Counted from the first letter of the stretch, positions 1,855 to 60,330 are shown. The stretch: DNA of 64,000 nt from Minisyncoccia bacterium (GCA_965656375.1 CBFHKH010000001.1:580291-644290); one strand, 5' to 3'. The notes: generated from the letters alone by a model not told the origin. Program-made: numbers and translations.

Positions 1855-1883
1855 ATACGGCTTATACTATCAGAAACAGTATT

Positions 1884-3569
1884 TTATACAACTTCCTGCT
1901 GATAGCATGATTCGCAATACAAAATCTCTGGTCGTTCTGGATCATACGAAGTTTCAAATTCATTTTGGCATTTTGCAGTGTGGGAATGATTTGATTTTTC
2001 ACACATACAAGATCTTTTCCAAAGCTTGGTAGGGCCTCTTTTTTGTAACAAATTTTGCTTTCTGCAAAAGAAACAAAGTCGCGGGATTGGAATTTGATTA
2101 AACTTATAAAACTGTAATTCACTTGGGATGATTTGATAGTTTCTACTGCAATCTTCACATTTCATGATTTCTTTAGTAAATGAATCAGAAACATCGTTTA
2201 TAGAATCAGGTATTTCTTGTATAGTTTCTAAACCTGTAGTTAGGGGTAATGAATCTTGCCATGTATATCCTTTTTTCAAGGCTTGATCTTTGGTCAATGG
2301 ATATTGTTCTTGTGCAATTGTCTCATTATAAGAGAATTTCGAAAGCTCTGTAGGAAAAAATTCTCCCCACTCTCCTAATTCTTTCATATCAGAAATAATT
2401 TGATCTCTCAGTTTAAAATATTCTGTTTTTTCATATTGAATATTAAAAATACAATATTTTGCGCTTTTTAAGCCTACACATCCAAATATATCTTCGCATG
2501 ACTGACATGAGTCGCTGTAGTATACATTTGTATCTTTATGACAATACATAGTGAAACATGTTCGATTTGAATTATCAGGATTAATACACTCGTAGCAGAG
2601 CTCCTGTTCGCCGCCACTCAGACAATCATAGCTATCCTTTACAGTGTCTCCTCTTTCAAAATACTTTGTATTTTCAGCTCTCACAACAATAAAGCAATTC
2701 TGTGAATTTTTTGAATTTACAAGGTAGTCACCGGTACAGTCAACACAATTTTTGAGACTCGCAAATCGATGAGGGAGTGTAAGGCGAAATTCTTCAAATT
2801 CTTTCTCTATTTTTGGTAAGGAAGTTGCACAATCAAATTTATATCCTTTTACTATTTCCATATATTCTTCTTTGGTATATTGAATATTCTTGAAACAGTA
2901 TTGTTTATTGCGAAGGTCGACACACATAAAGCAATTAGTACAACCCTTGCAGTCAAAACAATACGCACAATCTGTCATTGTCGATGATCGATATACATTC
3001 TTGCATTTATATGAATTATCTAGATTTATCGAAGAGTAGATATGATTACAATTGTCTTGGAGACCAATACAATCGACTATATCTTTGCCACCAACAAGAC
3101 ATGATGAGTAAAGGGCATTCTCAACTTTCCAAGAATTATCCGTTAGATAGCAGTCTTTACCGCGTGCAAAGTAATTTGTATATTCGCAATTTATGCTTCC
3201 GCTGCCATTGTCATTGAGAATTGCAAGTGCTGGAACTTTGTCGAGAAGATCTTTGAATTGGGAAAAGAAGGGTTTTGAAGAATCATATTTTTGTCCATAT
3301 GAAAAGGGATCCCATCCGTCTTTCCACCAGCAGTTTGAGCAATAGATCGGCAGGGTCTTATCTGGAGAGTAGATAGAAAGCGTATTATCAAAGCAGAGAT
3401 CACACTTTCTTTTATAAAAACAATAATCATTACGCCAGCTCATCCTACGTATACTTCGACACTCCGGACACCATGTTGGCGAAGGAACTTTTATCTTTTC
3501 GTAAAATGAGAGGTCATCTACTTCAAGAATAAAGTCCTTATTGCAATTTTGACAGTTGCGGGTTTCCAT
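1884..3569 (-). CDS. cysteine-rich paralog A (two zinc-ribbon-like ends plus two Cys-hexapeptide modules), unknown function
   Basis: Track ORF 1884-3605. The likely start is the internal Met (METRNCQNC), 2 nt after the stop of paralog B. About 44 Cys in 561 aa. N-terminus CQNCNKDF..FYEKIKVPSPTWCPECRSIRR. C-terminus KCEDCSRNY..FYKFNQIPIPRLCFFCRK ... YCESCYQQEVV. Internal modules: DCAYCFDCKGCTNCFMCVDLRNKQYCFKNIQYTKEEY and SCQSCEDIFGCVGLKSAKYCIFNIQYEKTEY. Confidence 0.8.
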   Translation of the reverse strand: METRNCQNCNKDFILEVDDLSFYEKIKVPSPTWCPECRSIRRMSWRNDYCFYKRKCDLCFDNTLSIYSPDKTLPIYCSNCWWKDGWDPFSYGQKYDSSKPFFSQFKDLLDKVPALAILNDNGSGSINCEYTNYFARGKDCYLTDNSWKVENALYSSCLVGGKDIVDCIGLQDNCNHIYSSINLDNSYKCKNVYRSSTMTDCAYCFDCKGCTNCFMCVDLRNKQYCFKNIQYTKEEYMEIVKGYKFDCATSLPKIEKEFEEFRLTLPHRFASLKNCVDCTGDYLVNSKNSQNCFIVVRAENTKYFERGDTVKDSYDCLSGGEQELCYECINPDNSNRTCFTMYCHKDTNVYYSDSCQSCEDIFGCVGLKSAKYCIFNIQYEKTEYFKLRDQIISDMKELGEWGEFFPTELSKFSYNETIAQEQYPLTKDQALKKGYTWQDSLPLTTGLETIQEIPDSINDVSDSFTKEIMKCEDCSRNYQIIPSELQFYKFNQIPIPRLCFFCRKQNLLQKRGPTKLWKRSCMCEKSNHSHTAKCQNEFETSYDPERPEILYCESCYQQEVV

Positions 3570-3571
3570 AA

Positions 3572-5326
3572 TTACACAATCTCTTGTTGATAACACTTTT
3601 CGCAATATACGATATCACCATCTTTTGGATTAAATCCTGTTCTAAATAGTTCACTACATGGCACATCTCCATGGATATGCTGCACGGTGTTCGTGAACTG
3701 CCCTGTTTCATCTTTCTTCCCAGCACACATACAGTGATTATCGTAGAGTGATATCTTGAATCGATCTGAAATTCGACGTTCGTGTCTGCACTCACTGCAG
3801 TGTGACGGTATTGGCAGGCTCTCACTTTTTAAGAAATTAAATTCATCGGCGAGAATCCGAAACGGTCTATTACAAACGCCGCACTCTAAAATCTCTTTTG
3901 TTATATCTTCTCCTACTTCACCTATTGAATCGGGTATTTCATCAGATTTCTTTGTAACAGCATATTTTCCAGGCTCTTCGTCTATCCAACCGTAATTATT
4001 AGCCACAATTTCTTCTTTGTCTTTGAGGAAATGCTGAAACGCTAAAGAATTATTATATCCAAAAGATGCAAACTCTATAGGGAAAAATTCTCCATATCTA
4101 TATATCAAACCTCGGGAATCAGTGTACGGCAATGCATTCATGTGTTCGATAATTTTTTCTCGGAGTGCCATATATTCCTCTTTGGTATATTGCGTATTAA
4201 ATATACAATATTGCTTGTTGCGCAATCCGACACAACCAAAACAATCTTTGCAAGATTTTAAATGAGTAGAATACTCTATATTGTTGTTATTTGGCCAGCA
4301 GTCCCAGGAAAATCGCACGTTATAGACATTCTCTCCGCAGACTGAGGTCTCGTAACAGAGCTCGACATCCTGTCCCCATATAGAATAATCAAGGCAATCT
4401 TTGATTTTTGCTACTGAAGCATATTGACTATACCGCACATCCTCTCCTCCTTTGACCATGTATGATTCAGTCACATTTTTTGAATGACTGACATATGAAC
4501 CAGAAAAGTTTAGATTTTGAAGTCCTTGATGGTATTTATTTATCTGAGTTTTCCAAAAAGCTCGAGCATTAGTACGGGCTTCATTGATACCAGCTTTTGT
4601 ATCTAGGCGCATTTCGGAAAGAATCTTGAAATATTCTTCTTTGGTATATTGCTGGTTGAAGATACAGTATGAGGCTTTACGCAAATTCGTACATCCAAAA
4701 CAATCATTGCATCCGAGACAATCTCTTGAGAACCACATATTGTGACACTCCACAGACATGATTGTAAAATAGCACTTATAACAATTCTGCAGCCAGAAAC
4801 ATTCGTAACACTTCTCAGAAGAGTTTACGTGTGAATCATCAATACAATTTTTTGAAAGAAAAAAATCATTACCATACAAACAATTCTCCGAAGAGTTTGA
4901 ATTAAAGCACAGATAACAATCTTTAAGCGTAGCTGCATTTGCTGCATATGGACTATCAATCATACGCTCAACATTAAGTGCATATGCAGGGACATCTTTC
5001 TCAAGCTCGAAGAATTGACTGAAAAAATCACGAGAGAAATCAAACTCTCTTCCATACTCCATAGGATCCCAGGAATCACTGAACCATTCTTGATCCGTCA
5101 CGACTTTTCGCAGAGCGGAAGGCGGATATAAGGAGAAAATATTTTCACCTGTGAATGCACTTTTTGCCTTAAAAAGCTTTCGTTCGTTTCTAAATGCAAA
5201 TCGTCGTTCTGCTCTACAATATGAACAAAATGTTGGTGGTGGAACTTTAATCTTGTCGTAGAAAGAAAAGTCTTCGGCTTCGATACTGAAACCTTTTTTA
5301 CAATTCTGACACGTTCGAGTTTCCAT
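3572..5326 (-). CDS. cysteine-rich paralog B, unknown function
   Basis: 584 aa. Begins METRTCQNCKKGFSIEAEDFSFYDKIKVPPPTFCSYCRAERRFAFRNER and ends YCEKCYQQEIV. Internal modules end DCLGCNDCFGCTNLRKASYCIFNQQYTKEEY and SCKDCFGCVGLRNKQYCIFNTQYTKEEY. Starts 6 nt after the pyrH stop, so it is in the same transcription unit. Confidence 0.8.
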   Translation of the reverse strand: METRTCQNCKKGFSIEAEDFSFYDKIKVPPPTFCSYCRAERRFAFRNERKLFKAKSAFTGENIFSLYPPSALRKVVTDQEWFSDSWDPMEYGREFDFSRDFFSQFFELEKDVPAYALNVERMIDSPYAANAATLKDCYLCFNSNSSENCLYGNDFFLSKNCIDDSHVNSSEKCYECFWLQNCYKCYFTIMSVECHNMWFSRDCLGCNDCFGCTNLRKASYCIFNQQYTKEEYFKILSEMRLDTKAGINEARTNARAFWKTQINKYHQGLQNLNFSGSYVSHSKNVTESYMVKGGEDVRYSQYASVAKIKDCLDYSIWGQDVELCYETSVCGENVYNVRFSWDCWPNNNNIEYSTHLKSCKDCFGCVGLRNKQYCIFNTQYTKEEYMALREKIIEHMNALPYTDSRGLIYRYGEFFPIEFASFGYNNSLAFQHFLKDKEEIVANNYGWIDEEPGKYAVTKKSDEIPDSIGEVGEDITKEILECGVCNRPFRILADEFNFLKSESLPIPSHCSECRHERRISDRFKISLYDNHCMCAGKKDETGQFTNTVQHIHGDVPCSELFRTGFNPKDGDIVYCEKCYQQEIV

Positions 5327-5332
5327 ATAGGT

Positions 5333-6019: not shown

Positions 6020-6020
6020 A

Positions 6021-6614: not shown

Positions 6615-6674
6615 ATAATTTCATTATATACTAAAATCATTCAGGCATTAAAAAAGACCTTCTTCAGGCCTTTT

Positions 6675-37886: not shown

Positions 37887-37957
37887 GCGGGGTTGGTTTA
37901 GTGGTAGAACACGTCCTTGCCAAGGATGAGACAGGAGTTCGATTCTCCTACTCCGCA
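37887..37957 (+). tRNA. tRNA-Gly (anticodon GCC)
   Basis: 71 nt GCGGGGT TG GTTT AGTGGTA GAAC A CGTCC TTGCCAA GGATG AGAC AGGAG TTCGATT CTCCT ACTCCGC A. Confidence 0.8.
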
Positions 37958-37966
37958 CAGAAGCAT

Positions 37967-39496: not shown

Positions 39497-39509
39497 AGAT
39501 TTGTCTTCA

Positions 39510-39530
39510 CTTGGTGGCAAGGCCACCAAG
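39510..39530 (+). terminator. hairpin after cca
   Basis: cttggtggc aag gccaccaag; no U-tract, so moderate confidence. Confidence 0.4.
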
Positions 39531-39818
39531 TAGTATAGAGAAATAAAAAAAATACCAGAGCGATGAGCAATGATATTTTATGGCTTTGGTTTCTTAAATC
39601 TTTTTTTTAGAAATGGTATGAACCATTGAAGGAAAATGAGGAAGGCTATAACAATCATAGTTATGGCCGCTTGTTTAAAGTGATATTCAGGCGAGGTCAT
39701 AACTCTATGATTTAGGTTAAAAATAACGATTCCAATTATATTTACAGTAAATCTTTTATTTGAAATAGTCAATGAATCTATATGCTATAATCAATATATT
39801 ATTAATATGTAAACACAT

Positions 39819-40310
39819 ATGATCACAAAAGAACAATACGTAGAGGCATTGATAGGGGAGATTAATATCATGAAACACTTGGCAGAGAAAATACAACCAG
39901 ATCAGCTAGCTCATAAGCCAACAGAATCTCAGAGAACACTTTCAGAATTACTGCATTATCTTACCTATATATTTATCGCAGGAACAGATGGTTCAGTAAC
40001 CGGTAATCCTGATGCATGGAAAAAGTACGCAGACGCACCAATGCCAACACTTGAGAACTTCAATGAGCTCATGAATAAAGAAGCTTCTGAAGTGAAAGCC
40101 CTTATCGAGCCAATGACAGATGAAGATTTGAAACAAGAAATACCGATGTGGGGAAGAACACAAAGTAAAGCTATGCATTTGCTCGGACTTCTCAAGATTG
40201 CTTCTGCATACAAAATGCAACTTTTCCTCTATATGAAGCAGTCAGGTACCACAAACATTGGCACCATGAATCTCTGGGCAGGCATGGATCAGCCACCAAA
40301 AGTAGAATAA
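39819..40310 (+). CDS. hypothetical protein (DinB/YfiT-like helical bundle?)
   Basis: 163 aa, soluble, no clear motifs. Confidence 0.4.
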   Translation: MITKEQYVEALIGEINIMKHLAEKIQPDQLAHKPTESQRTLSELLHYLTYIFIAGTDGSVTGNPDAWKKYADAPMPTLENFNELMNKEASEVKALIEPMTDEDLKQEIPMWGRTQSKAMHLLGLLKIASAYKMQLFLYMKQSGTTNIGTMNLWAGMDQPPKVE

Positions 40311-40319
40311 GTAAAAAAT

Positions 40320-40341
40320 AAAATCCCCATATGGGGATTTT
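40320..40341. terminator. bidirectional terminator
   Basis: aaaatcccc atat ggggatttt between convergent genes. Confidence 0.7.
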
Positions 40342-40344
40342 ATT

Positions 40345-42042
40345 TTAGACAAATTCTTGCTGATAGCACTTTTCACAGTACACAGTTTCTGGTCGTTCTG
40401 GAGCAAACGCAGTCATGATAGAAGTTTTACACTTTGCGCATTCTCGGTTCCATAAGCGTGGAGGATTGAGCCGGGCAAAATGAGCTTTCTGCCGACAGTG
40501 AGGACATGAGTGGGGTATCGGCAAATTCATCTTCTGTAATAAATTAAATTCTAGCGGACCAATCTTGTATCCTCGATTACAGAGAGAACATTTAATAATT
40601 TCACTCGTAATAGCGTCTTTTGTTTCTTTTATTGTTTCTGGTAAATCGCTCGCATCAAGAGTTGTTGTGTATTCAGTTTGTTCTCCTTCATACCAGGAGT
40701 ATCCTATAGAAATAGCTTCCTCTTTCGTCTTTGGGAAAAATTTCATTGCGTTTGATTCATTATAGGAAAGAGGGCTAATAAAAAGAGGGAGGAATTCTCC
40801 GTAGCTCCATACTCGACCTAAATCATCTACATAAGGATTTTTTTTCATATCTTCTATGATATGGGCTTTCATTTTTTCGTATTCCTCTTTTGAGTATTCC
40901 TTATTCAAAATACAATATGATTTACGTTTTAAATTAACGCAACCAAAAACATTTTTACAGGCTGAAGCCCAGATCGAGTATTCAGCATTTAATCCATCTG
41001 GATAGCAGTTTTGAGAAAATCGCACACCACTTGCTTTTTCTCCAGTAGAATGGGTCTCATACATGAGTTCAACATTTGCTCCCCAGCCCGAATAGTCATA
41101 GCAATCTTTTGCAGATGGGACAGTAATAAATTGGCAATATCTGCATTCTTCGGCGTTATTACTCAAATACATATTTTGAGAATTTTTTGACTCGTATGTA
41201 TACTCACCAGTTACATTAAGGTTTAGAGAATTACCACTGTAGACTCTGTAAGGTTTTGTTAACCAGAATGCCTGAGCTTTTTCTTGCATATCTTGTAATT
41301 TCTTCCATGAATCAAGACCGAGCTCTTTTATTTTTTCCACATAGTTTTCTTTGGAATATTTTTGGTTAAAAATACAATATGATTCTCCGCGTAAATTGGC
41401 ACAGCCGATACAGTTTGTGCAGTTATAGCAATTGCGAGAGAACCATACATCAGTACATGCATCACACTCTTCAGAGAAATAGGTTTGGTAGCATTTATTA
41501 ATACCCATTGATTCATAACAAAGCTCAGACTCTTGAGCTCGCATACAATCAGAGGAATCCTTGAGTTGGAAAATGATAGATGAATGCGTAATATTCTCAC
41601 AATAATCTGCCCAAAAAGTTAGATAGCAATTTCGAAGCCATGTTGCTCCGTTACAATATTCAGAATTTACCATTGTAGGACCAATAGTTTCTGTAGCTAC
41701 CCAAGGTGATTTACGAGAAAGTTCGTAAAGTTGTTCAAAAAAATTACGATTAGGGTCATACTCCATTCCATATTCTGTACCGTCCCAATCATCAGCCCAC
41801 CAACATTCAGAGCAAAATACAGTGATAGGCTTTTCTTTATGATACATGGAAAGTGTACGCTTTTTACACTTATCACAGTCTCTCCAATAAACAGTCCACA
41901 CGCTATATGAACCGATGCGACGAATAAGCCGACATTCCGGACACCATGTAGGGTGGGGAACATTGATCTTTTTATAGAAAAGCTGGTCACGTTCATCGAT
42001 CACGAAATCATTTTTACAATTCTGACAGGATTTTGTTTCCAT
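40345..42042 (-). CDS. cysteine-rich paralog C, unknown function
   Basis: 565 aa. Begins METKSCQNCKNDFVIDERDQLFYKKINVPHPTWCPECRLIRR and ends YCEKCYQQEFV. Modules NCYNCTNCIGCANLRGESYCIFNQKYSKENY and ACKNVFGCVNLKRKSYCILNKEYSKEEY. A TATAAT lies 6 nt upstream of the ATG, so the mRNA is probably leaderless. Confidence 0.8.
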   Translation of the reverse strand: METKSCQNCKNDFVIDERDQLFYKKINVPHPTWCPECRLIRRIGSYSVWTVYWRDCDKCKKRTLSMYHKEKPITVFCSECWWADDWDGTEYGMEYDPNRNFFEQLYELSRKSPWVATETIGPTMVNSEYCNGATWLRNCYLTFWADYCENITHSSIIFQLKDSSDCMRAQESELCYESMGINKCYQTYFSEECDACTDVWFSRNCYNCTNCIGCANLRGESYCIFNQKYSKENYVEKIKELGLDSWKKLQDMQEKAQAFWLTKPYRVYSGNSLNLNVTGEYTYESKNSQNMYLSNNAEECRYCQFITVPSAKDCYDYSGWGANVELMYETHSTGEKASGVRFSQNCYPDGLNAEYSIWASACKNVFGCVNLKRKSYCILNKEYSKEEYEKMKAHIIEDMKKNPYVDDLGRVWSYGEFLPLFISPLSYNESNAMKFFPKTKEEAISIGYSWYEGEQTEYTTTLDASDLPETIKETKDAITSEIIKCSLCNRGYKIGPLEFNLLQKMNLPIPHSCPHCRQKAHFARLNPPRLWNRECAKCKTSIMTAFAPERPETVYCEKCYQQEFV

Positions 42043-42067
42043 AGGCCAATTATAGCCCAGATAAAAT

Positions 42068-42094
42068 AAAACACACAGCTAGTCTGTGTGTTTT
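42068..42094. terminator. bidirectional terminator between yceI-like gene and paralog C
   Basis: aaaacacacag ctagt ctgtgtgtttt. Confidence 0.65.
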
Positions 42095-42113
42095 ATTTTT
42101 GAGATGAGGTAAA

Positions 42114-42722
42114 TTATTTCAATGGTGCAGTTACGGTGAGCTCTACCACTTCGTTCGCGAGCTTTTGATCGATACCAAATTCTTTCATATCGATATTGAA
42201 GGTTGAACTAAGCTCGGTAGCAGATGATTTCACATCGACAGTAACGTTCTTCGAAACACCATGTACTGTCATGACACCAGAGAGCTTATTATCCTTAAAA
42301 GAAGTAACTTTGAAAGTTGCAGTTGGATACTTTGATACCTCAAAGAAGGTTTTTGACTTAAGATCTGTAGTTACCTTTGAAATTTCGGTTGAGAGAGAAT
42401 TCATATCAACCATTACCTCTCCTTTTATATCACTACCGTCAAAAGCAAGTTTAGAATCTACTTTGCCAAAAGAACCCTCATGGACTTTTCCAGGACCAAA
42501 ACCTTTGAATGTGATTTTCACATTTGCATTGTCGATTTCTTTATCAGAAGCTGTCTGCGTGGTCTCATTTTCAGATGCTTTTATTTCTGATTCATTATTT
42601 GTAGTAGTAGTTACATCACTTACTTGCGCCTCTTGAATAGATGCATCAGGTTTCGTTTGGATTGCATACCATACCACTCCACCGATAACAATAATTCCTA
42701 ACGCGATTAAAATTGATTTCAT
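42114..42722 (-). CDS. YceI-like periplasmic/lipid-binding domain protein with N-terminal TM anchor
   Basis: 202 aa. Thr/Asn-rich linker, then a YceI-like beta-barrel (KVTFKGFGPGKVHEGSF...MTVHGVSKNVTV). Confidence 0.6.
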   Translation of the reverse strand: MKSILIALGIIVIGGVVWYAIQTKPDASIQEAQVSDVTTTTNNESEIKASENETTQTASDKEIDNANVKITFKGFGPGKVHEGSFGKVDSKLAFDGSDIKGEVMVDMNSLSTEISKVTTDLKSKTFFEVSKYPTATFKVTSFKDNKLSGVMTVHGVSKNVTVDVKSSATELSSTFNIDMKEFGIDQKLANEVVELTVTAPLK

Positions 42723-42990
42723 ATTTTAAAAAATTATTACTGATAGACTAGTATTATACCGTAATACAGATAAATAAAAAAAGGGCTACATTACTGTAGA
42801 CCTTTCACCAGTCAGGGTGATACTGTTTTAGTGACCTGCGGCAATGGCCATGTCAGCCATATTGGGTAAATCTTTCTTCGAAGGATTTACATACAGGCTA
42901 GCGATGATAATTGTTACAATTACCAAACGCCAGAACCAATTCTTGTTTAACATTCTTTTTTATTATAGCATAATCTGCTAAAAAAGCAAG

Positions 42991-43788
42991 CTATATAAGC
43001 TCTAAAACGATAGGGCAGTGGTCAGATCCGTAGATTTCAGGAAGGATATATGAGTCGCCAATTTTACTTTTTAGCTTGTTTGAGACGCAGAAGTAATCGA
43101 TACGCCAGCCGACGTTGCGCTCGCGTGCACTTGCAAAATGACTCCACCATGTATAATGGCCATTACCGTTTGTAAACATTCGAAATGTATCAATAAATCC
43201 TGCATCAAGAAAATTCTGGAAGCCTTCACGCTCTTCGTCTGTGAAACCTTTATTGCCGACATTTTCTTTTGGTCGCGCCAAATCATCTGGTGTGTGAGCA
43301 ACATTGAGATCCCCGCAGAAAATGACAGGTTTGTGTTTCTCAAGCTCTTTCATATAGGCAAGAAACGCTTTATCCCAGATCTTGTGCCGAAGAGGAACAC
43401 GAGAAAGATCATCTTTGGCATTTGGAGTATAGACAGTCACTATGAAGAATTTTTTTAGCTCAACGGCAATGACTCGACCTTCGGCGTTTGCATCCCCATA
43501 CTTGTCAGAGGTGAGTTTAAACTTCTTCGCGATTTCAGGTGGGATATCATAGAGCACTGAAAGTGGAATTTCTTTGGTAAAGATTGCTGTGCCACTATAG
43601 CCCTTTTTCGTGCGCGATGAATTCCAATATTCTTCGTAGTCTGGCAGATCTACTTCGGACTGATGCTGTTCTGCCTTCGTTTCTTGGAGACAGATAACAT
43701 CTGGCTTGTACTTGTTCACAAAAGGAATAAAGAGGTTCTTTTTATGCACTGCGCGTATTCCGTTTACGTTCCATGAAATGATTCTCAT
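42991..43788 (-). CDS. xth: exodeoxyribonuclease III (AP endonuclease, EEP family)
   Basis: 265 aa. MRIISWNVNGIRA...LQETK N-terminus; the C-terminal SDHCP motif. Confidence 0.9.
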   Translation of the reverse strand: MRIISWNVNGIRAVHKKNLFIPFVNKYKPDVICLQETKAEQHQSEVDLPDYEEYWNSSRTKKGYSGTAIFTKEIPLSVLYDIPPEIAKKFKLTSDKYGDANAEGRVIAVELKKFFIVTVYTPNAKDDLSRVPLRHKIWDKAFLAYMKELEKHKPVIFCGDLNVAHTPDDLARPKENVGNKGFTDEEREGFQNFLDAGFIDTFRMFTNGNGHYTWWSHFASARERNVGWRIDYFCVSNKLKSKIGDSYILPEIYGSDHCPIVLELI

Positions 43789-43791
43789 ATA

Positions 43792-44736
43792 TTATTTTGA
43801 CTTACTGTGAAACTTTTTGTGTACATCTCGCAATTGAGCATCCGTCACATGCGTATAGATCTGTGTGGTAGCGATATTAGCATGTCCCAACATCATCTGC
43901 ACTGAACGTATGTCGGCACCATTTGAAAGTAAATCAGTTGCGAACGAATGGCGAATAACGTGGGGTGTAACCTTTTTTGATATTCCAGCTTTGATCGCAT
44001 AAAACTTTACGATGCGCTCAATCGAGCGCGGGGTGAGTCGATTGCTCTTTGCGCCATTGCGTGAATATTGGATGAACAGAGGACTATCAAGATCTTTACG
44101 AGCTTTTAAATAAAGGCGGATAGCATCCTTAGCGGTATCTGAGAGAAATACAACTCGAACCTTTTCTCCTTTTCCACGAATTGAAAACTCATCTCGAGAT
44201 AGATCAAGATCCCGATCAAGTGAGCAGAGCTCTGCTAAGCGAAGTCCTGTTGAGAAGAAAAGTTCAAGGATCGCTTTATCACGCAATCCCTTTGGAGTAG
44301 TGGTATTTGGGGCACTGAGTAACCGATCTAGTTCATTTGTAGAGATCAGATCAAGCGAGCGCTCTTTTACTTTGGCAAGCTCAATCCGATCGGGAGCAAG
44401 GGAAGTGACATCACGCTTTATCAGGTATTTGAGAAATGCCCGGAGCGCGATCAGGTGATAGTTTTGAGTATTCTTCTTGAGCGTGGCCGCCTGTTGCCCG
44501 CGAATCTTTACTCCTGGCTGACGATTGAGATACAGTCGAAACTCGCGGATCTTGTCATCGGTGATCTCTTTCGGATCTGTGATCTTCGCAAACTCAAAGA
44601 ATCGAGAGAGGTAGTATTCATAATTCTCTACGGTCCTCAAACTGTTTCCTTTCTCAATTTCTACATGTTCGAGGAATTCTCTTTTTAATTGTTCAAGCCG
44701 TGATGTCATATGAATGTCGTACAATAATTGTATCAC
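43792..44736 (-). CDS. tyrosine site-specific recombinase XerC/XerD-like
   Basis: 314 aa. C-terminal catalytic box HVIRHSFATDLLSNGADIRSVQMMLGHANIATTQIYTHV (R..H..R..Y). The true start may be the internal MTSRLEQLK. Confidence 0.85.
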   Translation of the reverse strand: MIQLLYDIHMTSRLEQLKREFLEHVEIEKGNSLRTVENYEYYLSRFFEFAKITDPKEITDDKIREFRLYLNRQPGVKIRGQQAATLKKNTQNYHLIALRAFLKYLIKRDVTSLAPDRIELAKVKERSLDLISTNELDRLLSAPNTTTPKGLRDKAILELFFSTGLRLAELCSLDRDLDLSRDEFSIRGKGEKVRVVFLSDTAKDAIRLYLKARKDLDSPLFIQYSRNGAKSNRLTPRSIERIVKFYAIKAGISKKVTPHVIRHSFATDLLSNGADIRSVQMMLGHANIATTQIYTHVTDAQLRDVHKKFHSKSK

Positions 44737-55103: not shown

Positions 55104-55913
55104 TCAGATAGTTTCATTTAATCTTTTTGATTCTGCCCATGCAAGCTCATAGATCTTTTTCATAGCATCGGCAATTTCGGCAGATTCAATGATGATTCCA
55201 AGCTTTTCACGCCATGATGCAATCATTACTTTATTATCATAGATATTTATCTCGGGATGGAACCCATATGTATCAGGAACGATGAGCGATTTGCGCATTT
55301 CCTCTGTATCAAGACTCGCTCGCTCCCGAGCATCAGCTGAATTAGGAAATATAGCTCTGATCGAAATCCCTTTTTTCGCTCGTCGTTTGTAATATTCAGG
55401 GAAATAATGAGGCAGAGTCGGCTGTATATCTTCTACACTTGCATAAGCAAGGATTTCCTCAGTCGAACTCAACGTATCTTCGTAGACTGTCTCTAAGCCA
55501 TCTTTGCCTTCATAAAATTTAATCTTTGGTCGATTATCCTTATTGTGGATTGATATTAGCTCAGGAATTATTTCTTTTGCTTGTGTAAGTGCAGAAGTGT
55601 ACTCTTTTATTTTTTCTTGCAGGATTTTCTCGATATTCTCTGGAGATTCTGCAGTATACTCCTGTTTCGGCTCTTTACCGGATGTACGAACAAGTTTTTT
55701 AAGTTCAAGAGAGGCAAGCACATGGTAGGCAGTAGGGCGATTGATGCCTGCTTTACGAGCAATCTCTGTTACAGTACCTTTTCCAAGTTCAAGTAATGCT
55801 AAATAGACTTCAATTTCTTTTTCCGAGAAACCGATACTTAGAAGACTTTTTTTGATATTGAATTGGGTATTTTCCATATAATCCATTATATTCAAACTAC
55901 TGAAATCTGTCAA
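55104..55913 (-). CDS. TrmB-family transcriptional regulator
   Basis: 269 aa. N-terminal winged HTH (LSIGFSEKEIEVYLALLELGKGTVTEIARKAGINRPTAYHVLASLELKKLV), then a TrmB C-terminal effector-like domain. Confidence 0.55.
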   Translation of the reverse strand: MTDFSSLNIMDYMENTQFNIKKSLLSIGFSEKEIEVYLALLELGKGTVTEIARKAGINRPTAYHVLASLELKKLVRTSGKEPKQEYTAESPENIEKILQEKIKEYTSALTQAKEIIPELISIHNKDNRPKIKFYEGKDGLETVYEDTLSSTEEILAYASVEDIQPTLPHYFPEYYKRRAKKGISIRAIFPNSADARERASLDTEEMRKSLIVPDTYGFHPEINIYDNKVMIASWREKLGIIIESAEIADAMKKIYELAWAESKRLNETI

Positions 55914-56108: not shown

Positions 56109-56480
56109 ATGAAAAAATTAGTTTTCTTCGTGCTTACTATTATTATAGTGAGCTGCAACTCAAAAACAGAATCAACAGATTCTAAAGAAGATATCTCAAA
56201 ATGGCAGATATATGTAAGTCCTATAAAACATCATATGCCTGATGGATTGAGTACATATGAAGTATATAGATGCCAGCATTGTAATTCTGAAGAATCAATG
56301 GATCAGGTTGTAGAAAAAGAGATAGATAAATTAGTGATCAGAATTGATTCTCTGTGGAGTTCACAAAAAAAGACAGCACTGCGGCAGTTACCACTTTTGC
56401 AAAGCAAGCTTGATGGCTTACGATATGAGCAAGCACTCATCAACCAAGCTATCGCAGATTTTAAGAAAAGTGAATACTAA
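56109..56480 (+). CDS. putative lipoprotein
   Basis: 123 aa. MKKLVFFVLTIIIVSC lipobox-like signal. Confidence 0.5.
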   Translation: MKKLVFFVLTIIIVSCNSKTESTDSKEDISKWQIYVSPIKHHMPDGLSTYEVYRCQHCNSEESMDQVVEKEIDKLVIRIDSLWSSQKKTALRQLPLLQSKLDGLRYEQALINQAIADFKKSEY

Positions 56481-56512: not shown

Positions 56513-56824
56513 ATGAAAACAGAAAACAATTTGACTTTCACGCTAAAAAGTAGAAAAGCTTTCAATCGCTGGAAAAGAGTTGTGAAGAATGATCCTAATC
56601 TCCAAGAAGTTCTTGAGGAAACTATCAAATGGGGTTCCTTAATGGAAAGAAGAATTAGAAAAGGATGGTGGAGTCTATGTACCAGTGAAACTTTTGAAAA
56701 AACAGAGCTTGCAAAAACCTATATGGGATTTTTGGCACCTGCAATTTTGATTGAATGCTGGAAATATAGCGGTCGCTTATTTTCAAAAGGGGAAGAGCCG
56801 TTGAATATTAAATTTGAAGATTAA
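56513..56824 (+). CDS. hypothetical protein
   Basis: 103 aa, basic, no motifs. Confidence 0.4.
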   Translation: MKTENNLTFTLKSRKAFNRWKRVVKNDPNLQEVLEETIKWGSLMERRIRKGWWSLCTSETFEKTELAKTYMGFLAPAILIECWKYSGRLFSKGEEPLNIKFED

Positions 56825-56911: not shown

Positions 56912-58642
56912 ATGACTAATCAAACCTGCAACACATGCGCTAAAGAATTTGAGGTCACAAATGATGATCTGGCCTTTTATGATCAAATGAAGGTTGAAAT
57001 ACCTAGTTTTTGCTCGGAATGCAGGCTCTTGCAGCGTCTTATATGGAGAAACGAAAAGACACTCTATCGCAGAGAGTGTGACATGTGTCATAGGCAGATG
57101 ATATCAATCTATAGTCTAGATTCAGAATACACTGTCTACTGTCGTGAATGCTTTCATTCTGATAACTGGGATCCTCAGTCTTTTGGCAGACAAATAGACT
57201 TTTCCCGTCCATTCCTTGAACAATTTCGCGCGCTTCAATTACAAGTTCCTCGAATTTCTTCTTTCGTATTCCAAAATACAAAGAGTGAATATGTAAACGG
57301 AGCAGCGTATAATAAGAATTGCTATATGATCTTCAGAAGCGATAATAATGAGGATCTACTCTTTAGTTATTCGACATCGAACTCTCGTTCATCGTCAGAT
57401 CTTTTAAATTCTACCGAGTGTAACATGTGCTATGGTTGCGTCGGATGTATCAAATGCTATCGCACGATATATTCCGAGGATTGTTCAGCTTCGCAAAACT
57501 TGATCGCATGTAAAAATTGTATAAACTGCCAGGATTGCATAGGGTGTGTTAATTTGCACAATGTTCAATACGCGATTTTTAATGAGATCTATACAAAAGA
57601 AGAGTATCTAAAGAAATCCAAAGAACTTGGATTAGAATCTCGAATTAATCTTTCTTCACTCCAGAAGAAAATAAATGAGTTCCAAGCAAAATTTCCAGTA
57701 AAATATTTACATGGGTTGAAAAATGTGGAAGTTTCGGGAGATTATATCTTGAATTCAAAGAATGCTCATATAGTGTTTGATTCGCAAGAATTAGAAAACT
57801 GTAAGTTTATAAATCATGGTGAACATGCGAAAGATTCATATGACTCTTATGTCCTTGTAGATAAAAGTGAACGATCATACAATGTGATAAGCGGAATTGC
57901 TTTAAATACTGTACTCTCGGGGAATTGCATTTGGCATGGGTATAATATCTCCTATTCGGACACCTGCGAAAATTCTCATGATCTTTTTGGTTGTGTCGGA
58001 TTAAGGAAAAAGGAATACTGTATTTTGAATACACAATATACAAAAGAAGAATACGAAGCGCTTGTCCTAAAAATAATCGAGAACATGAGAAGCATGCCAT
58101 TTAGTGATGGAAAAGTAGATTATCAATATGGAGATCCATTACCAGCGACCTTCTCTCCGTTTGCATACAATGAAACAGTCGCTCATGAATATTTTCCTTC
58201 CGATAAGGAAAAAGCGGAACACAGAGGATTTTCTTGGAAAGAAGGAGAAAAGAAAAAGTATGAGGCAACCTTAGAAGGGAACTCTACTCCGGACGAGATA
58301 AAGAATGTAGAAGACTCAATTGTCAAAGAGATCATTGCTTGTGCTCATAGAAATAATTGTGCTCACCAGTGTACAGATGCTTTTAAAATAACAGAGGATG
58401 AATTACACTTATACAGAAGGATCAACATCCCACTTCCTACCTTGTGTTTTAATTGTAGAAATGGAGAGCGGATTGAGAAACGCAATCCATGCAAGCTATG
58501 GCTACGGTCATGCATGTGTACCATAGAAAACCACCACAATCACAAGGGAGCAACTTGTATGGAAGAATTTGAAACAAGCTATGCTCCAGACCGAAAAGAA
58601 ATCGTGTATTGTGAATCATGTTATCAGCAGGAAGTATCTTAA
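56912..58642 (+). CDS. cysteine-rich paralog D, unknown function
   Basis: 576 aa. Begins MTNQTCNTCAKEFEVTNDDLAFYDQMKVEIPSFCSECRLLQRL and ends YCESCYQQEVS. Modules NCINCQDCIGCVNLHNVQYAIFNEIYTKEEY and DLFGCVGLRKKEYCILNTQYTKEEY. Confidence 0.8.
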   Translation: MTNQTCNTCAKEFEVTNDDLAFYDQMKVEIPSFCSECRLLQRLIWRNEKTLYRRECDMCHRQMISIYSLDSEYTVYCRECFHSDNWDPQSFGRQIDFSRPFLEQFRALQLQVPRISSFVFQNTKSEYVNGAAYNKNCYMIFRSDNNEDLLFSYSTSNSRSSSDLLNSTECNMCYGCVGCIKCYRTIYSEDCSASQNLIACKNCINCQDCIGCVNLHNVQYAIFNEIYTKEEYLKKSKELGLESRINLSSLQKKINEFQAKFPVKYLHGLKNVEVSGDYILNSKNAHIVFDSQELENCKFINHGEHAKDSYDSYVLVDKSERSYNVISGIALNTVLSGNCIWHGYNISYSDTCENSHDLFGCVGLRKKEYCILNTQYTKEEYEALVLKIIENMRSMPFSDGKVDYQYGDPLPATFSPFAYNETVAHEYFPSDKEKAEHRGFSWKEGEKKKYEATLEGNSTPDEIKNVEDSIVKEIIACAHRNNCAHQCTDAFKITEDELHLYRRINIPLPTLCFNCRNGERIEKRNPCKLWLRSCMCTIENHHNHKGATCMEEFETSYAPDRKEIVYCESCYQQEVS

Positions 58643-58644
58643 TT

Positions 58645-60330
58645 ATGATAAAACAAAATTGTAAAACATGTTCGAAAGAGTTTGAGATACGTGATGAAGA
58701 CGTAGTGTTTTATGAGCAGATGAAGAGCCCGATGCCACAATATTGTCCTGATTGTCGAATGATGCGAAGACTCGCATTTCGCAACGAACGAACATTGTAC
58801 AAGAGAGCGTGTGATCTTTGTAAAACTGATGGAGTATCGCTATATCCAGCAGGTACACCATTCCCAGTATACTGCCATAAATGCTGGTGGAGTGATAAAT
58901 GGGATCCACGAAGTTTCGCTATGGAGTATGATTCATCCCGACCATTTCTCGATCAATTCAAAGAATTGCAAAGTAAAGTTCCGCGAATTGCACTCTTAGT
59001 CATTGATTCTGTACGATCCGACTATACAAACAATGCAGGAGAAAATAAGGACTGCTATCTGATATTTGCAGCCGAGAATAACGAAGATTGTATGTATGGA
59101 CGCCTTGTACAGAGATGCAAAGGATGTAACGATTGCGCTTTTACCTATGACTCAGAATTATGCTATGAATGCATTGATTGCCGTTCATGCTTCAAATGTA
59201 TGTATAGCGAGCAATGTCAGTCTTCAAGCGACCTATTATTCTGCTACAACATGCGAGACTCGCAAAATTGTATTTTATGTACAAATGGCAGGCATGTTTC
59301 GTACTCGATACTCAATGTAAAATATACAAAGGAGGAGTTTGAAAAAAGAAAAGGAGAGATTCTCTCAAGCTATGAGAATATTGAGAAAGCAAAGAAAGAG
59401 TACGCCGAACTCAAGAACCAATGTATTGTAAAAAATGCGTGGCAGACAAAGTGCCACAATACAACAGGGGACTATATGTATAACTGCTACGATGGGATAC
59501 GGCTTTTCGATGTATCGGATGCAAAGAATTGCTCATATATGGCTGACAGTATGGATGTAAAAGACTCTATGGATTGCAATAACTTTTATATAAAGTGTGA
59601 ATTTGAATACGATATGATGGGAGTACTGGGTGGATCTAAAAATAAACATGGTTTTTATGTGATGTGGTGTACGAATACAGAATATTGTGATTCATGTTAT
59701 CACTCAAATGATCTTTTTGGATGTATCAGACTCAATAAAGAAAGTTATTCAATTTTAAATAAGAAATACTCAAAAGAAGAGTATGAGATACTGCGTGATC
59801 AAATCATTGAAGCAATGAAAGCTGACGGATCATACGGGCAATTTTTCCCTTCGTCTTTATCTCCATTTGGTTACAACGAGACTCTTGCAAAAGAATATTT
59901 CCCGCTTACACGCGATGAAGCAATAGAGAAGGGATTTCGCTGGCAAGAGCAAAACACAGGAACATTTGGAAAAGAAACGATGAATGAAGATGCAATTCCT
60001 AAAACAGTAGAAAATATACAAGACTCAATCCTAGGAGATATACTTGCATGTAACGAATGTGGGAAAAATTTCAAAATTACACAGATGGAACTCGATTTCT
60101 ATAAGAGAATGGATGTTCCGCTGCCACACAAAGATTTCGAATGCCGGCATCAAGATCGAATGAAAAAAAGAAATCCACGAGCTCTCTGGTTACGTTCTTG
60201 TATGTGCGATAAGGAAAATCATGTGAATCATGGTAGAGCAGTGTGTGCTGAAAGATTTGAAACGAGTTACTCTCCAGATCGTACGGAGATACTATATTGC
60301 GAATCATGTTATCAGCAAGAAATATCATAA
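58645..60330 (+). CDS. cysteine-rich paralog E, unknown function
   Basis: Start placed at MIKQNCKTCSKEF, 2 nt after the paralog D stop; the track ORF starts at 58618 and overlaps D. Begins ...FYEQMKSPMPQYCPDCRMMRRLAFRNERTLYKRACDLCK and ends YCESCYQQEIS. Modules ...YSILNVKYTKEEF and DLFGCIRLNKESYSILNKKYSKEEY. Confidence 0.8.
   Translation: MIKQNCKTCSKEFEIRDEDVVFYEQMKSPMPQYCPDCRMMRRLAFRNERTLYKRACDLCKTDGVSLYPAGTPFPVYCHKCWWSDKWDPRSFAMEYDSSRPFLDQFKELQSKVPRIALLVIDSVRSDYTNNAGENKDCYLIFAAENNEDCMYGRLVQRCKGCNDCAFTYDSELCYECIDCRSCFKCMYSEQCQSSSDLLFCYNMRDSQNCILCTNGRHVSYSILNVKYTKEEFEKRKGEILSSYENIEKAKKEYAELKNQCIVKNAWQTKCHNTTGDYMYNCYDGIRLFDVSDAKNCSYMADSMDVKDSMDCNNFYIKCEFEYDMMGVLGGSKNKHGFYVMWCTNTEYCDSCYHSNDLFGCIRLNKESYSILNKKYSKEEYEILRDQIIEAMKADGSYGQFFPSSLSPFGYNETLAKEYFPLTRDEAIEKGFRWQEQNTGTFGKETMNEDAIPKTVENIQDSILGDILACNECGKNFKITQMELDFYKRMDVPLPHKDFECRHQDRMKKRNPRALWLRSCMCDKENHVNHGRAVCAERFETSYSPDRTEILYCESCYQQEIS

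What the first reader, a model, noticed from the sequence alone, without database searches (positions are those of the whole stretch)
56912..60330. Internal architecture: duplicated zinc-ribbon ends flanking two cysteine-ladder hexapeptide-repeat modules
Within each paralog the N-terminal C-x2-C...FY.K...P.P..C-x2-C-R.RR unit recurs near the C-terminus (for example KCEDCSRNYQIIPSELQFYKFNQIPIPRLCFFCRK in A, and CSLCNRGYKIGPLEFNLLQKMNLPIPHSCPHCRQ in C), giving a pseudo-symmetric layout. Between these ends sit two modules whose cysteines fall on a strict 6-residue period. Examples: DCAYCF|DCKGCT|NCFMCV|DLRNKQ in A, DCLGCN|DCFGCT|NLRKAS in B, and NCINCQ|DCIGCV|NLHNVQ in D. Each module ends with an almost invariant cap, G-C-x-x-L-[RKH]-x3-Y-C/S-I-F/L-N-x-Q/K-Y-T/S-K-E-E-Y. 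Hexad [DN]-C-x-x-C-x ladders recall cysteine-ladder beta-solenoids such as insect antifreeze proteins, and left-handed beta-helix hexapeptide repeats, but the combination with terminal Cys4 ribbons is unfamiliar. The motifs do not fit ferredoxin (CxxCxxCxxxCP), SPASM, or CxxCH heme signatures; CxxCH occurs only once, in paralog D.
Basis: seen in the sequence. Interest (0 to 1): 0.75.

Follow-up and report, generated by a model that had tools for sequence, protein, structure and literature searches.

The report
Cysteine-lined twin beta-solenoid, zinc-ribbon protein family
The two genes (and three more in the window) encode an undescribed protein family of tiny "candidate phyla radiation" bacteria, predicted to contain two narrow spiral domains whose cores are lined with cysteine at every third residue, flanked by detachable zinc-binding ends; what the proteins do is unknown.

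Summary
D (56912-58642) and E (true start 58645, to 60330), with paralogs A, B and C, share the layout Zn1-Zn2 / solenoid 1 / helices / solenoid 2 / conserved mid motif / Zn3-Zn4. Profile comparison shows that Zn1 is homologous to Zn3, Zn2 to Zn4, and solenoid 1 to solenoid 2.

The cysteine period is 3 residues, not 6, with a 12-residue super-period. Every third residue is Cys, Ser or a small aliphatic residue, and N/D/G usually precedes it. This is the in/out pattern of the Tenebrio antifreeze beta-helix. Only solenoid 1 is Cys-rich in these proteins.

The family is specific to Patescibacteria: 3,150 clusters at 50% identity. Genes often lie in tandem arrays.

Relatives show the modules are separable:
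- ~315-aa core-only proteins with an almost perfect (xxC)n ladder;
- ~90-aa stand-alone Zn1-Zn2 proteins encoded next to them.

Recurrent neighbours are a TrmB-like regulator and, in Paceibacteria, orphan VirD4-like ATPases.

Function is unresolved. My best guess is a rigid, thiol-rich binding or metal-handling scaffold.

The parts
56912..58642 (+). Paralog D, 576 aa, full gene
   Evidence: ORF. 100% identical to P0001, which lies on an 840-kb contig. AF2 model pLDDT 82, pTM 0.81.
56912..57061 (+). D Zn1: treble-clef-like Cys4 ribbon (C6, C9, C34, C37) followed by an Arg-rich helix (R38, R42, R46)
   Evidence: The four Cys are conserved at 96-98% in 268 homologs. Homologous to Zn3. Pfam zf_Tbcl PF13451 is matched by 13 of 60 family members at E<0.01.
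57062..57205 (+). D Zn2: CxxC-x17-CxxC ribbon (C56, C59, C77, C80)
   Evidence: The spacing can be read directly from the sequence. All four Cys are present in 196 of 268 homologs and are lost in paralog B. Homologous to Zn4 and to the C-terminal ribbon of long VirD4-like ATPases.
57266..57595 (+). D solenoid 1 (residues 119-228): about 7 coils of 12 residues. The inward position falls every third residue (137...224) and carries 12 Cys.
   Evidence: Phase lock, P 5.6e-6. Column statistics. Autocorrelation peaks at lag 12. DSSP bridges in the AF2 model are spaced 12 apart.
57518..57547 (+). Last full coil of solenoid 1: the C203-x2-C206-x2-C209-x2-C212 ring, the best-conserved ladder cysteines
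   Evidence: Cys frequencies are 0.84, 0.93, 0.96 and 0.78. CCCC occurs in 155 of 268 homologs, CCCS in 48 and LCCC in 30.
57542..57607 (+). Cap 1: G-C-V-N-L-H-N-V-Q-Y-A-I-F-N-E-I-Y-T-K-E-E-Y
   Evidence: N224 is invariant in the 60-sequence alignment A2 and 99% conserved in 268 homologs.
57698..58042 (+). D solenoid 2 (residues 263-377) with cap 2. It is homologous to solenoid 1, but the inward positions are mostly Ser, Leu or Val.
   Evidence: hhalign E 9e-30. BLASTP E 2e-9. Cys is conserved only at 352, 361 and 370.
58043..58321 (+). Helix plus conserved mid motif (YGEFFP...SPFxYNETxAxExFP...W). The first part of it is retained in the core-only short forms.
   Evidence: This stretch, with the adjoining cap 2, has the lowest column entropy in the protein. 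Short forms end in YGxFxPSxYPxEDT.
58322..58489 (+). D Zn3 (C477, C487, C512, C515, plus C483), a repeat of Zn1
58490..58639 (+). D Zn4 (C534/C536, C549, C567, C570), a repeat of Zn2 with a His-rich insert in its first knuckle. The C-terminus is the conserved YCExCYQQEV.
   Evidence: Weak zf_Tbcl_2/TIGR04272 hits.
58645..60330 (+). Paralog E, 561 aa from ATG 58645, two bases after the D stop codon (junction TAATTATG). It has the same eight-part layout as D.
   Evidence: The ortholog in L083 is called at 561 aa. AF2 model pLDDT 87, pTM 0.89.
58999..59328 (+). E solenoid 1: 14 Cys, all in one phase modulo 3
   Evidence: P 6.3e-7. The DSSP pattern shows periods of 3, 6 and 12.
59428..59772 (+). 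E solenoid 2 with cap
1884..3569 (-). Paralog A (561 aa from ATG 3569). It lies in tandem after B with the same TAATTATG junction.
3572..5326 (-). Paralog B (584 aa). Its Zn2 cysteines are lost.
40345..42042 (-). Paralog C (565 aa). Its Zn4 has the canonical CxxC-x17-CxxC spacing.
55104..55913 (-). TrmB-family regulator, divergent from D/E. It is a recurrent neighbour of the family in distant Patescibacteria.
   Evidence: Pfam TrmB is found in the syntenic and distant loci L083, L085, L091, L094 and L097. The L091 copy is 44.6% identical to the window copy. Homologs occur in 5 of 79 GTDB loci.

Best explanation
Shown:
- Each protein is an internally duplicated, pseudo-symmetric protein with no signal peptide or membrane segment, so presumably cytoplasmic.
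- Its conserved core (about 300 aa) has two homologous modules, each closed by a cap (G-C-x2-L-R...Y-C-I-F-N-x-Q-Y-T-K-E-E-Y) that runs into a helix.
- The sequence repeat is a tripeptide: [N/D/G turn]-[small residue]-[variable]. It has a 12-residue super-period.
- Two kinds of Cys4 unit are added to the core, each present at both ends: a treble-clef-like type (Zn1, Zn3) and a CxxC-x17-CxxC type (Zn2, Zn4).

Predicted by AlphaFold2:
- Each module is a narrow beta-solenoid with four three-residue sides per 12-residue coil.
- This is the same in/out geometry as the Tenebrio antifreeze beta-helix.

Inferred:
- The 'cysteine ladder' is the inward-facing position of that coil. Cys, interchangeable with Ser, Leu and Val, lines and packs the very tight core. 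The ladder cysteines are not a set of fixed ligands.
- The one well-conserved four-Cys ring on the last coil of solenoid 1 is the best candidate for an internal metal site.
- The four terminal units bind zinc. They are accessory docking modules, because in other Patescibacteria the core and the Zn1-Zn2 unit are separate, adjacent genes.

Function (inferred, weak):
- A rigid, thiol-rich scaffold that binds partners through its ribbons.
- It is probably under a TrmB-like regulator.
- In Paceibacteria it probably works with, or is handled by, orphan VirD4-like ATPases that carry the same ribbon type.
For: Duplication:
- hhalign and HMM cross-hits and BLASTP within D.

Tripeptide and 12-residue period:
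- All Cys share one phase.
- Inward positions are 83% C/S/T/A/V/L/I, and the preceding residue is 48% N/D/G.
- Autocorrelation is maximal at lag 12.
- K135/E147/K159/E171 form a 12-residue ladder.

Fold:
- Two AF2 models, pTM 0.81 and 0.89.
- TmAFP inward residues are C2, S5, C8 and A11 of a 12-residue coil (PMC8038014).

Cys as core lining:
- 5 to 17 of the 29 inward sites are Cys per protein. Ser is the main substitute. Solenoid 2 has Ser or Leu at equivalent sites.

Zinc:
- The Cys4 sets of Zn1, Zn3 and Zn4 are 96-100% conserved.
- There are matches to PF13451, PF23477 and TIGR04272, mostly below the curated cut-offs.
- CxxC-x17-CxxC proteins of M. mazei bind zinc by ICP-MS (PMC12704099).

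Modularity:
- Core-only proteins of about 315 aa, with at least 476 homologs.
- Stand-alone Zn1-Zn2 proteins of about 90 aa encoded directly downstream of a core gene in three loci.

Cytoplasmic location:
- No hydrophobic segment (maximum Kyte-Doolittle 1.08), and the ribbons start at residue 6.

Partners:
- A VirD4/TrwB-like ATPase occurs in 20 of 79 loci, usually directly upstream. About 2 loci would be expected from roughly 2 copies per genome (10.1101/2025.01.22.634366).
- The ATPase ribbon is homologous to Zn2: prob 95.8%, E 7e-9.
- TrmB is a neighbour in Paceibacteria, Peregrinibacteria and Gracilibacteria-type loci.
Against: - No coordinates could be inspected, so handedness, ring geometry and inter-domain packing are not verified.
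- pLDDT is only 50-75 over parts of both solenoids.
- The very high Cys preference in short forms (about 20 consecutive inward sites at 58-97% Cys, 9.5% Cys overall) exceeds what packing alone requires. It hints at chemistry, whether metal or redox.
- No VirD4-like ATPase lies in this window or in the Peregrinibacteria/Gracilibacteria loci examined.
- Neighbourhood counts are inflated by shared synteny among related genomes.
- The proteins are acidic (pI 5.4-5.6), which does not favour nucleic-acid binding through the Arg-rich helices.
- No experiment exists for any family member.
Confidence: 0.6

Rival explanations
1. Metal-thiolate store or buffer. The Cys-lined solenoid core, not just the ribbons, binds a row of metal ions (Zn, Cu(I) or Fe). 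This would be analogous in logic to the Cys-lined four-helix-bundle copper storage proteins (Csp1/Csp3; recalled from memory, not checked).
For: - Short forms have Cys at nearly every inward site: consensus DCVDCDYCEKCELCYECVDCKNCYNC...DCKNCTDCEYCYDCKGCKNCFGCVGL, about 30 Cys in 315 aa.
- The four-Cys ring 203/206/209/212 is conserved.
- One short form lies directly downstream of a ZIP permease and divergent from a Fur-family regulator.
- A CopA-like ATPase and a CsoR-like repressor lie near the Peregrinibacteria cluster.
- The proteins appear cytoplasmic and these organisms are thought to be mostly anaerobic (background knowledge, not tested), which makes disulfides unlikely.
Against: - The number and positions of Cys vary widely between paralogs (5-17 of 29 inward sites).
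- Solenoid 2 of the long forms has almost none.
- A 12-residue coil leaves little room in its core.
- Metal genes are not enriched near long forms: CopA in 1 of 79 loci and ZIP in 1 of 79.
Confidence: 0.25
2. Cargo or effector of a VirD4-like coupling ATPase. The paralog arrays would encode proteins recognised through their ribbons or conserved C-terminus and exported towards the host cell.
For: - The ATPase lies directly upstream of arrays of 1-5 family genes in many Paceibacteria loci.
- There is no Sec signal.
- The C-terminus YCExCYQQEV is nearly invariant.
- Copy number differs between syntenic genomes, 1 versus 3.
- CPR coupling-protein genes are mostly orphan.
Against: - Length and fold are uniform, and divergence is star-like at about 40% identity. 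This is unlike typical effector repertoires.
- Rigid zinc-bound domains are poor translocation substrates.
- The association is absent in this window and in the Gracilibacteria/Peregrinibacteria loci.
- DnaJ and DnaK neighbours suggest other readings.
Confidence: 0.15
3. Disulfide-stapled secreted antifreeze, ice-binding or adhesin-like solenoid, a true relative of the insect antifreeze proteins.
For: - The same 12-residue coil and every-third-residue inward pattern.
Against: - No signal peptide or membrane segment.
- No TCT/TxT face, and no sequence match to any PDB chain.
- Cys at i and i+6 do not co-occur (mean phi -0.15), and the ladder Cys count is odd as often as even (133 versus 135).
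- The Cys4 zinc-ribbon ends are typical of intracellular proteins (background knowledge).
Confidence: 0.03
4. Iron-sulfur or electron-transfer protein, or a left-handed beta-helix (hexapeptide) acyltransferase or gamma-carbonic-anhydrase relative.
For: - Many CxxC motifs.
Against: - No CxxCxxCxxxCP motif.
- No Fer4, Hexapep or radical-SAM Pfam hits at E up to 1.
- The ladder cysteines are not conserved.
- The coil is 12 residues, not 18.
- No conserved catalytic constellation was identified.
Confidence: 0.04

Closest known systems
Tenebrio molitor antifreeze protein (TmAFP, 1EZG), 12-residue right-handed beta-helix TCTxSxNCxxAx
   Same: Both have a 12-residue coil whose inward residues fall at every third position (C2, S5, C8, A11 in TmAFP, per PMC8038014). 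In both, Cys or Ser lines an extremely narrow core, and N/D/T precedes the inward Cys.
   Different: There is no detectable sequence homology, no TCT ice-binding face and no signal peptide. Cys at i/i+6 are not co-conserved, so disulfide staples are not indicated. Here there are two solenoids per protein, with helical caps and zinc ribbons, in a bacterial protein with no export signal.
Ryegrass ice-binding protein LpIBP (3ult) and curli CsgA (8c50): small two-sheet beta-rolls or solenoids
   Different: Sequence identity is 5-8%. Their coils differ from the 12-residue coil here (about 14-15 residues in LpIBP and longer in CsgA; figures recalled from memory, not checked). They have no cysteine lining and are extracellular proteins.
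Pfam zf_Tbcl (PF13451) and zf_Tbcl_2 (PF23477) / TIGR04272 CxxC-x17-CxxC domains
   Same: Zn1/Zn3 and Zn2/Zn4 are distant members of these families. Zn2 has the x17 spacing exactly in D, and Zn4 has it in paralog C. Stand-alone Zn1-Zn2 proteins carry PF13451 hits. M. mazei CxxC-x17-CxxC proteins bind zinc.
   Different: The window paralogs score below the curated cut-offs (best 22.8 versus 24 bits). These Pfam families have no assigned function and do not cover the solenoid core.
Left-handed beta-helix hexapeptide-repeat enzymes (LpxA, GlmU, gamma-carbonic anhydrase)
   Different: They have an 18-residue triangular coil and the [LIV]-G-x4 signature, and they are trimeric enzymes. None of these features is found here.
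Cys-lined copper storage proteins Csp1/Csp3 (recalled from memory, not tested)
   Same: The shared concept is a protein core lined by many cysteines in a regular array.
   Different: Those are four-helix bundles with demonstrated Cu(I) loading. Here the fold is a beta-solenoid and no metal data exist.

Membership tests
Beetle antifreeze proteins (TmAFP type) | 12-residue coil with inward residues every third position | tested here: met
   Autocorrelation is maximal at lag 12 and positive at all multiples of 3. Phase lock. DSSP bridges in the AF2 model are spaced 12 apart. The TmAFP pattern is taken from PMC8038014.
Beetle antifreeze proteins (TmAFP type) | TCT/TxT ice-binding face, secretion signal, and C2-C8 disulfide in each coil | tested here: not met
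   The aligned modules show no recurring TCT/TxT repeat, though no explicit pattern search was run. No hydrophobic N-terminus. Cys co-occurrence at i/i+6 has mean phi -0.15, and the Cys count is odd as often as even.
Beetle antifreeze proteins (TmAFP type) | Sequence homology | tested here: not met
   The module profile finds no PDB chain at E up to 10. Whole-protein profiles find nothing either.
Hexapeptide-repeat left-handed beta-helix (Pfam Hexapep) | [LIV]-G-x4 hexapeptides, 18-residue coil, Pfam match | tested here: not met
zf_Tbcl (PF13451) treble-clef-like zinc finger | Two CxxC knuckles with the family's sequence profile | tested here: inconclusive
   Paralog C scores 22.8 bits against a cut-off of 24; D and E have no hit. 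13 of 60 family members match at E<0.01. Stand-alone Zn1-Zn2 homologs carry precomputed PF13451 hits.
CxxC-x17-CxxC domain (TIGR04272 / PF23477) | CxxC, 17 residues, CxxC, plus a profile match | tested here: inconclusive
   The spacing is exact in Zn2 of D (C56, C59, C77, C80) and in Zn4 of C. Profile scores are below cut-off (21.6 versus 27; 18.4 versus 36). The neighbouring long ATPase passes the cut-offs (48.7 and 49.8 bits) and aligns to Zn2 at prob 95.8%.
Zinc binding by the four terminal Cys4 sites | Bound zinc | not testable with these tools
   Inferred from 96-100% conservation of the Cys4 sets and from ICP-MS on M. mazei CxxC-x17-CxxC proteins.
2[4Fe-4S] ferredoxin / SPASM / c-type heme | CxxCxxCxxxCP, SPASM or CxxCH motifs | tested here: not met
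   A regex over the five paralogs finds no ferredoxin motif and one CxxCH, in Zn2 of D. No Pfam hits.
Known anti-phage defence proteins (PADLOC) | Profile match | tested here: not met
   No hit for A, D or E.

The most novel reading that the evidence does not exclude
The solenoid core is a functional metal-thiolate tube. Stacked rings of inward cysteines would hold a linear array of metal ions (Zn, Cu(I) or Fe) inside a 12-residue beta-helix. There are up to four such cysteines per coil over about five coils in the core-only relatives. This would be a new kind of metal store, buffer or wire for ultra-small symbiotic bacteria, with the zinc ribbons acting as docking or hand-over modules.
Probability: 0.15. 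Interest if true: 0.9.

Novelty: new variant of a known kind. Interest (0 to 1): 0.6.

Why it matters
Patescibacteria have genomes of about 0.8 Mb. This one nevertheless spends 13% of the 64-kb window on five copies of this family.

The family has about 3,150 clusters at 50% identity and no curated description, structure or function. Understanding it would add to what is known of CPR biology.

For protein science, it would be a bacterial, apparently cytoplasmic example of the minimal 12-residue beta-helix geometry otherwise familiar from beetle antifreeze proteins. Its core is almost entirely cysteine, and its zinc-ribbon modules are detachable, with fused and split gene versions both found.

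The split and fused versions, the conserved TrmB-like regulator and the VirD4-like ATPase neighbours provide concrete handles for experiments.

Tried and rejected
Database and structure searches that found nothing useful:
- Pfam, NCBIfam and PADLOC on the five paralogs gave only sub-threshold zinc-finger hits.
- PDB sequence searches with four profiles (whole protein with 5 and 115 sequences, Zn1-Zn2, module) found nothing meaningful.
- Foldseek against PDB found nothing with E<1. The AFDB library was unavailable.

Phage origin:
- There was one edge hit in IMG/VR.
- PHROG 15341 (unknown function) matches the modules at 1e-4 to 1e-6.
- tblastn against 50,697 phage genomes found nothing. This lead is left open.

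Tests of specific ideas:
- Disulfide pairing by Cys co-occurrence showed no i/i+6 coupling; the correlations probably reflect subfamilies.
- Conserved operon context was checked for A/B (SecY-Adk-kinase-B-A-Map) and C (CCA enzyme...Exo_endo_phos). The synteny is lineage-specific and functionally uninformative.
- Metal-gene enrichment around long forms was not seen.
- The small ORFs between TrmB and the family genes are not homologous between lineages.
- The 158-aa ORF after the split Zn gene in L097 is a membrane protein, not a Zn3-Zn4 module.

Literature:
- Literature searches found no description of the family.

Full report
**What is at the coordinates**

The interval 56912-60330 holds two co-directional genes: D (56912-58642, 576 aa) and E (listed from 58618, 570 aa). 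The four other paralogs are 35-43% identical to D and align end to end. Together the five genes occupy 13% of the window.

E almost certainly starts at ATG 58645 and A at ATG 3569. In both tandem pairs the upstream stop and the downstream start form the same TAATTATG junction. The E ortholog in a syntenic genome is called at 561 aa.

**Checking the internal duplication**

I cut a 60-sequence family alignment (A2) into segments and compared them with hhalign:

| Comparison | Probability | E-value |
|---|---|---|
| Zn1 (D 1-50) vs Zn3 (470-526) | 99.2% | 7.6e-20 |
| Zn2 (50-98) vs Zn4 (527-576) | 96.6% | 6.8e-10 |
| Module 1 (115-236) vs module 2 (262-386) | 99.8% | 9e-30 |
| All cross-controls | below 8% | |

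- HMMs of each segment find their counterpart in every one of the five paralogs, and in no other ORF of the window.
- Within D alone, module 1 and module 2 are 31% identical over 102 residues (BLASTP E 2e-9).
- The cap motif occurs twice per protein.

The layout is therefore Zn1-Zn2 / helix / solenoid 1 / two helices / solenoid 2 / helix plus conserved 'YGEFFP...SPFxYNET' motif / Zn3-Zn4.

**The periodicity**

The cysteines do not follow a strict hexad.
- Cys-Cys spacings are confined to multiples of three (3, 6, 9, 12, 15, 18, 21), and 9 and 12 are at least as frequent as 6.
- In solenoid 1 of D, E, B and C all 12-14 cysteines share one phase modulo 3 (P about 6e-7 to 6e-6 each). In A a one-residue indel shifts the phase.
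- Across 268 homologs the in-phase positions are 83% C/S/T/A/V/L/I, the preceding residue is 48% N/D/G, and the following residue is the most variable.
- Profile autocorrelation is positive at every multiple of 3 and negative elsewhere. Its maxima are at lags 12 and 24, and lag 6 is not special.
- A K135/E147/K159/E171 ladder also repeats every 12 residues.

The unit is a tripeptide side, [turn]-[inward small residue]-[outward], with four sides per 12-residue coil. [quoted passage not shown]

**Structure prediction**

| Model | Alignment depth | Mean pLDDT | pTM |
|---|---|---|---|
| D | 60 sequences | 82 | 0.81 |
| E | 115 sequences | 87 | 0.89 |

- Both models show ribbons and helices at high confidence. 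The modules appear as runs of one- to four-residue strands repeating every 3, 6 and 12 residues. Parts of both solenoids have pLDDT of only 50-75.
- Foldseek against PDB and four PDB sequence-profile searches find nothing.

**Are the ladder cysteines ligands?**

- Across the family, 5-17 of the 29 inward sites of solenoid 1 are Cys. Ser is the commonest replacement, followed by Leu and Val.
- The number of ladder Cys is odd as often as even (133 versus 135).
- Cys at i and i+6, the TmAFP disulfide partners, tend not to co-occur (mean phi -0.15).
- Solenoid 2 of the long proteins carries Ser or Leu at the equivalent positions and keeps only three conserved Cys.

Most ladder cysteines therefore behave as small core residues rather than fixed ligands. 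The exception is the last coil of solenoid 1, C203-x2-C206-x2-C209-x2-C212. Its Cys frequencies are 0.84, 0.93, 0.96 and 0.78, and CCCC occurs in 155 of 268 sequences.

By contrast, the Cys4 sets of Zn1, Zn3 and Zn4 are 96-100% conserved. Zn2 is either complete (196 of 268) or lacks most or all of its four Cys, as in paralog B.
- Zn2 has the exact CxxC-x17-CxxC spacing. Domains of that type from M. mazei bind zinc by ICP-MS (PMC12704099).
- Pfam and NCBIfam give only distant matches (PF13451, PF23477, TIGR04272), below the curated cut-offs for the window paralogs.

**Family and distribution**

- D has at least 3,986 homologs, all unnamed, from Patescibacteria.
- A profile of the ten window modules finds 3,150 representatives at E up to 1e-3 (862 at 1e-30) among 1.84 billion clusters at 50% identity. 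Every one of the best 150 has at least two modules.
- A scan of GTDB species genomes gave 581 relatives. Nearly all of the best 80 are labelled as Paceibacteria-type or generic Patescibacteria assemblies.
- In 79 loci the genes are often in same-strand tandem arrays of 2-7 copies. Copy number differs between syntenic genomes.
- Most members are about 40% identical to every window paralog, a star-like radiation.

**Modular relatives**

The module search uncovered a short form of about 315 aa. It begins at the helix before solenoid 1 and ends just after the 'YGxFxPSxYPxEDT' motif, with no ribbons.
- It is found in Gracilibacteria and Peregrinibacteria and has at least 476 homologs.
- Its ladder is almost perfect: about 20 consecutive inward sites at 58-97% Cys, and 30 Cys per 315 aa.
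- One Peregrinibacteria locus carries three long and two short forms.
- In three separate loci (L091, L096, L097) a short core gene is followed directly by an 88-104-aa gene. Its product aligns to family-profile positions 3-85, that is to Zn1-Zn2.
- Fifty-four clusters of such stand-alone proteins were found, with sources naming them 'zinc-ribbon domain containing protein'.

This fused-versus-split pattern is the strongest evidence that the ribbons are accessory modules that work with the core.

**Genomic context and function**

Contexts in the window are uninformative.
- A and B sit between secY-adk-kinase and map.
- C sits near the CCA-adding enzyme.
- D and E are preceded by a divergent TrmB-family regulator.

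That regulator recurs:
- in the syntenic locus L083;
- in 5 of 79 GTDB loci;
- twice in the Peregrinibacteria cluster;
- next to short forms in L091, L094 and L097. The L091 copy is 44.6% identical to the window's copy.

In Paceibacteria the most frequent neighbour is a VirD4/TrwB-like ATPase without membrane segments.
- It occurs in 20 of 79 loci, usually directly upstream, sometimes with a short DnaJ in between.
- With about 2 such genes per CPR genome, mostly not near virB4 (10.1101/2025.01.22.634366), about 2 loci would be expected. Shared ancestry inflates the observed count.
- Long versions of the ATPase end in a CxxC-x17-CxxC ribbon that aligns to Zn2 (prob 95.8%).
- No such ATPase is in this window.

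One short form follows a ZIP permease opposite a Fur-like gene. Metal genes are not enriched near long forms.

The proteins have no hydrophobic segment, are acidic (pI 5.4-5.6) and match no defence family.

**Verdict**

- The architecture is real and the solenoid interpretation is supported. The correct description is a tripeptide/12-residue, TmAFP-like coil lined by Cys or Ser, duplicated, with four detachable zinc ribbons.
- It resembles the insect antifreeze helix in geometry but fails that family's defining tests: ice-binding face, secretion, disulfide pairs and sequence homology.
- It is not a hexapeptide left-handed helix or an Fe-S protein.
- Function is unknown. My best-supported guess is a rigid thiol-rich scaffold using its ribbons to dock partners, under a TrmB-like regulator and linked in Paceibacteria to orphan VirD4-like ATPases.
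- The main rival is metal storage in the Cys-lined core. It cannot be excluded and would be the most interesting outcome.

Noticed in passing
window 1087-7946 (-): Paralogs B and A are inserted in the conserved secY (6675-7946), adk (6021-6614), amino-acid-kinase-family (5333-6019) ... map (1087-1854) gene string at the end of the ribosomal-protein cluster. This placement was not seen in the other loci examined.
   Followed up: partly
window 58640-58647 and 3567-3574: Both tandem pairs (D/E and B/A) have the identical stop-start junction TAATTATG, a 2-nt spacer that suggests translational coupling. The ORF-list starts of E (58618) and A (3605, TTG) are probably too far upstream.
   Followed up: yes
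window 58511-58558 (D residues 534-549): In A, B, D and E the first knuckle of Zn4 is split by a 10-22-residue insert. In A, D and E this insert is His-rich (C-M-C-x3-N-H-x2-H-x4-C); in B it is longer. Paralog C has the plain CxxC. The insert could form an extra Cys/His metal site.
   Followed up: no
window 5033-5326 (-) and 60031-60177 (+): Paralog B has lost all four Zn2 cysteines. In paralog E one Zn3 ligand is replaced by Asp (PHKDFECRH versus PTLCFNCRN in D). About a quarter of family members lack a complete Zn2 Cys4 set.
   Followed up: partly
window 56513-56824 (+) and 56109-56480 (+): Two small ORFs lie between the TrmB-like gene and D. One is a 103-aa protein with a weak Pfam Tad4 (Thoeris inhibitor) hit (E 0.0019, below cut-off). 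The other is a 123-aa predicted lipoprotein. The small ORFs at the same position in other lineages are not homologous.
   Followed up: partly
L053 1529-5980, L076 1-5133 and similar loci (L038, L057, L064): A recurrent Paceibacteria gene set precedes arrays of the family: a sigma70-region-4 + HARE-HTH protein, a 450-aa membrane protein with no Pfam match, a ~172-aa protein, and a VirD4-like ATPase lacking membrane segments. A short DnaJ lacking the zinc-finger domain often follows the ATPase.
   Followed up: partly
PHROG phrog_15341 (profile positions 37-268): A phage protein family of unknown function matches the solenoid modules of D, E, B and C at E 1e-4 to 1e-6. No member could be found in 50,697 phage genomes by tblastn. 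Only one contig-edge hit appeared in IMG/VR.
   Followed up: partly
L089 6490-8767; window 35442-36188 (-): In one Gracilibacteria-type lineage a core-only family member lies directly downstream of a ZIP metal permease and opposite a Fur-family regulator, with prophage-like genes 4-8 kb away. The window itself has a ZIP homolog (44.6% identity) about 4 kb from paralog C.
   Followed up: partly
L084 5299-11725 versus window 37901-44736: A syntenic region (Exo_endo_phos ... CCA-adding enzyme) holds three family genes plus a ParE/YafQ-like toxin pair in another genome but only paralog C here. This shows gain or loss of copies at a fixed chromosomal site.
   Followed up: partly
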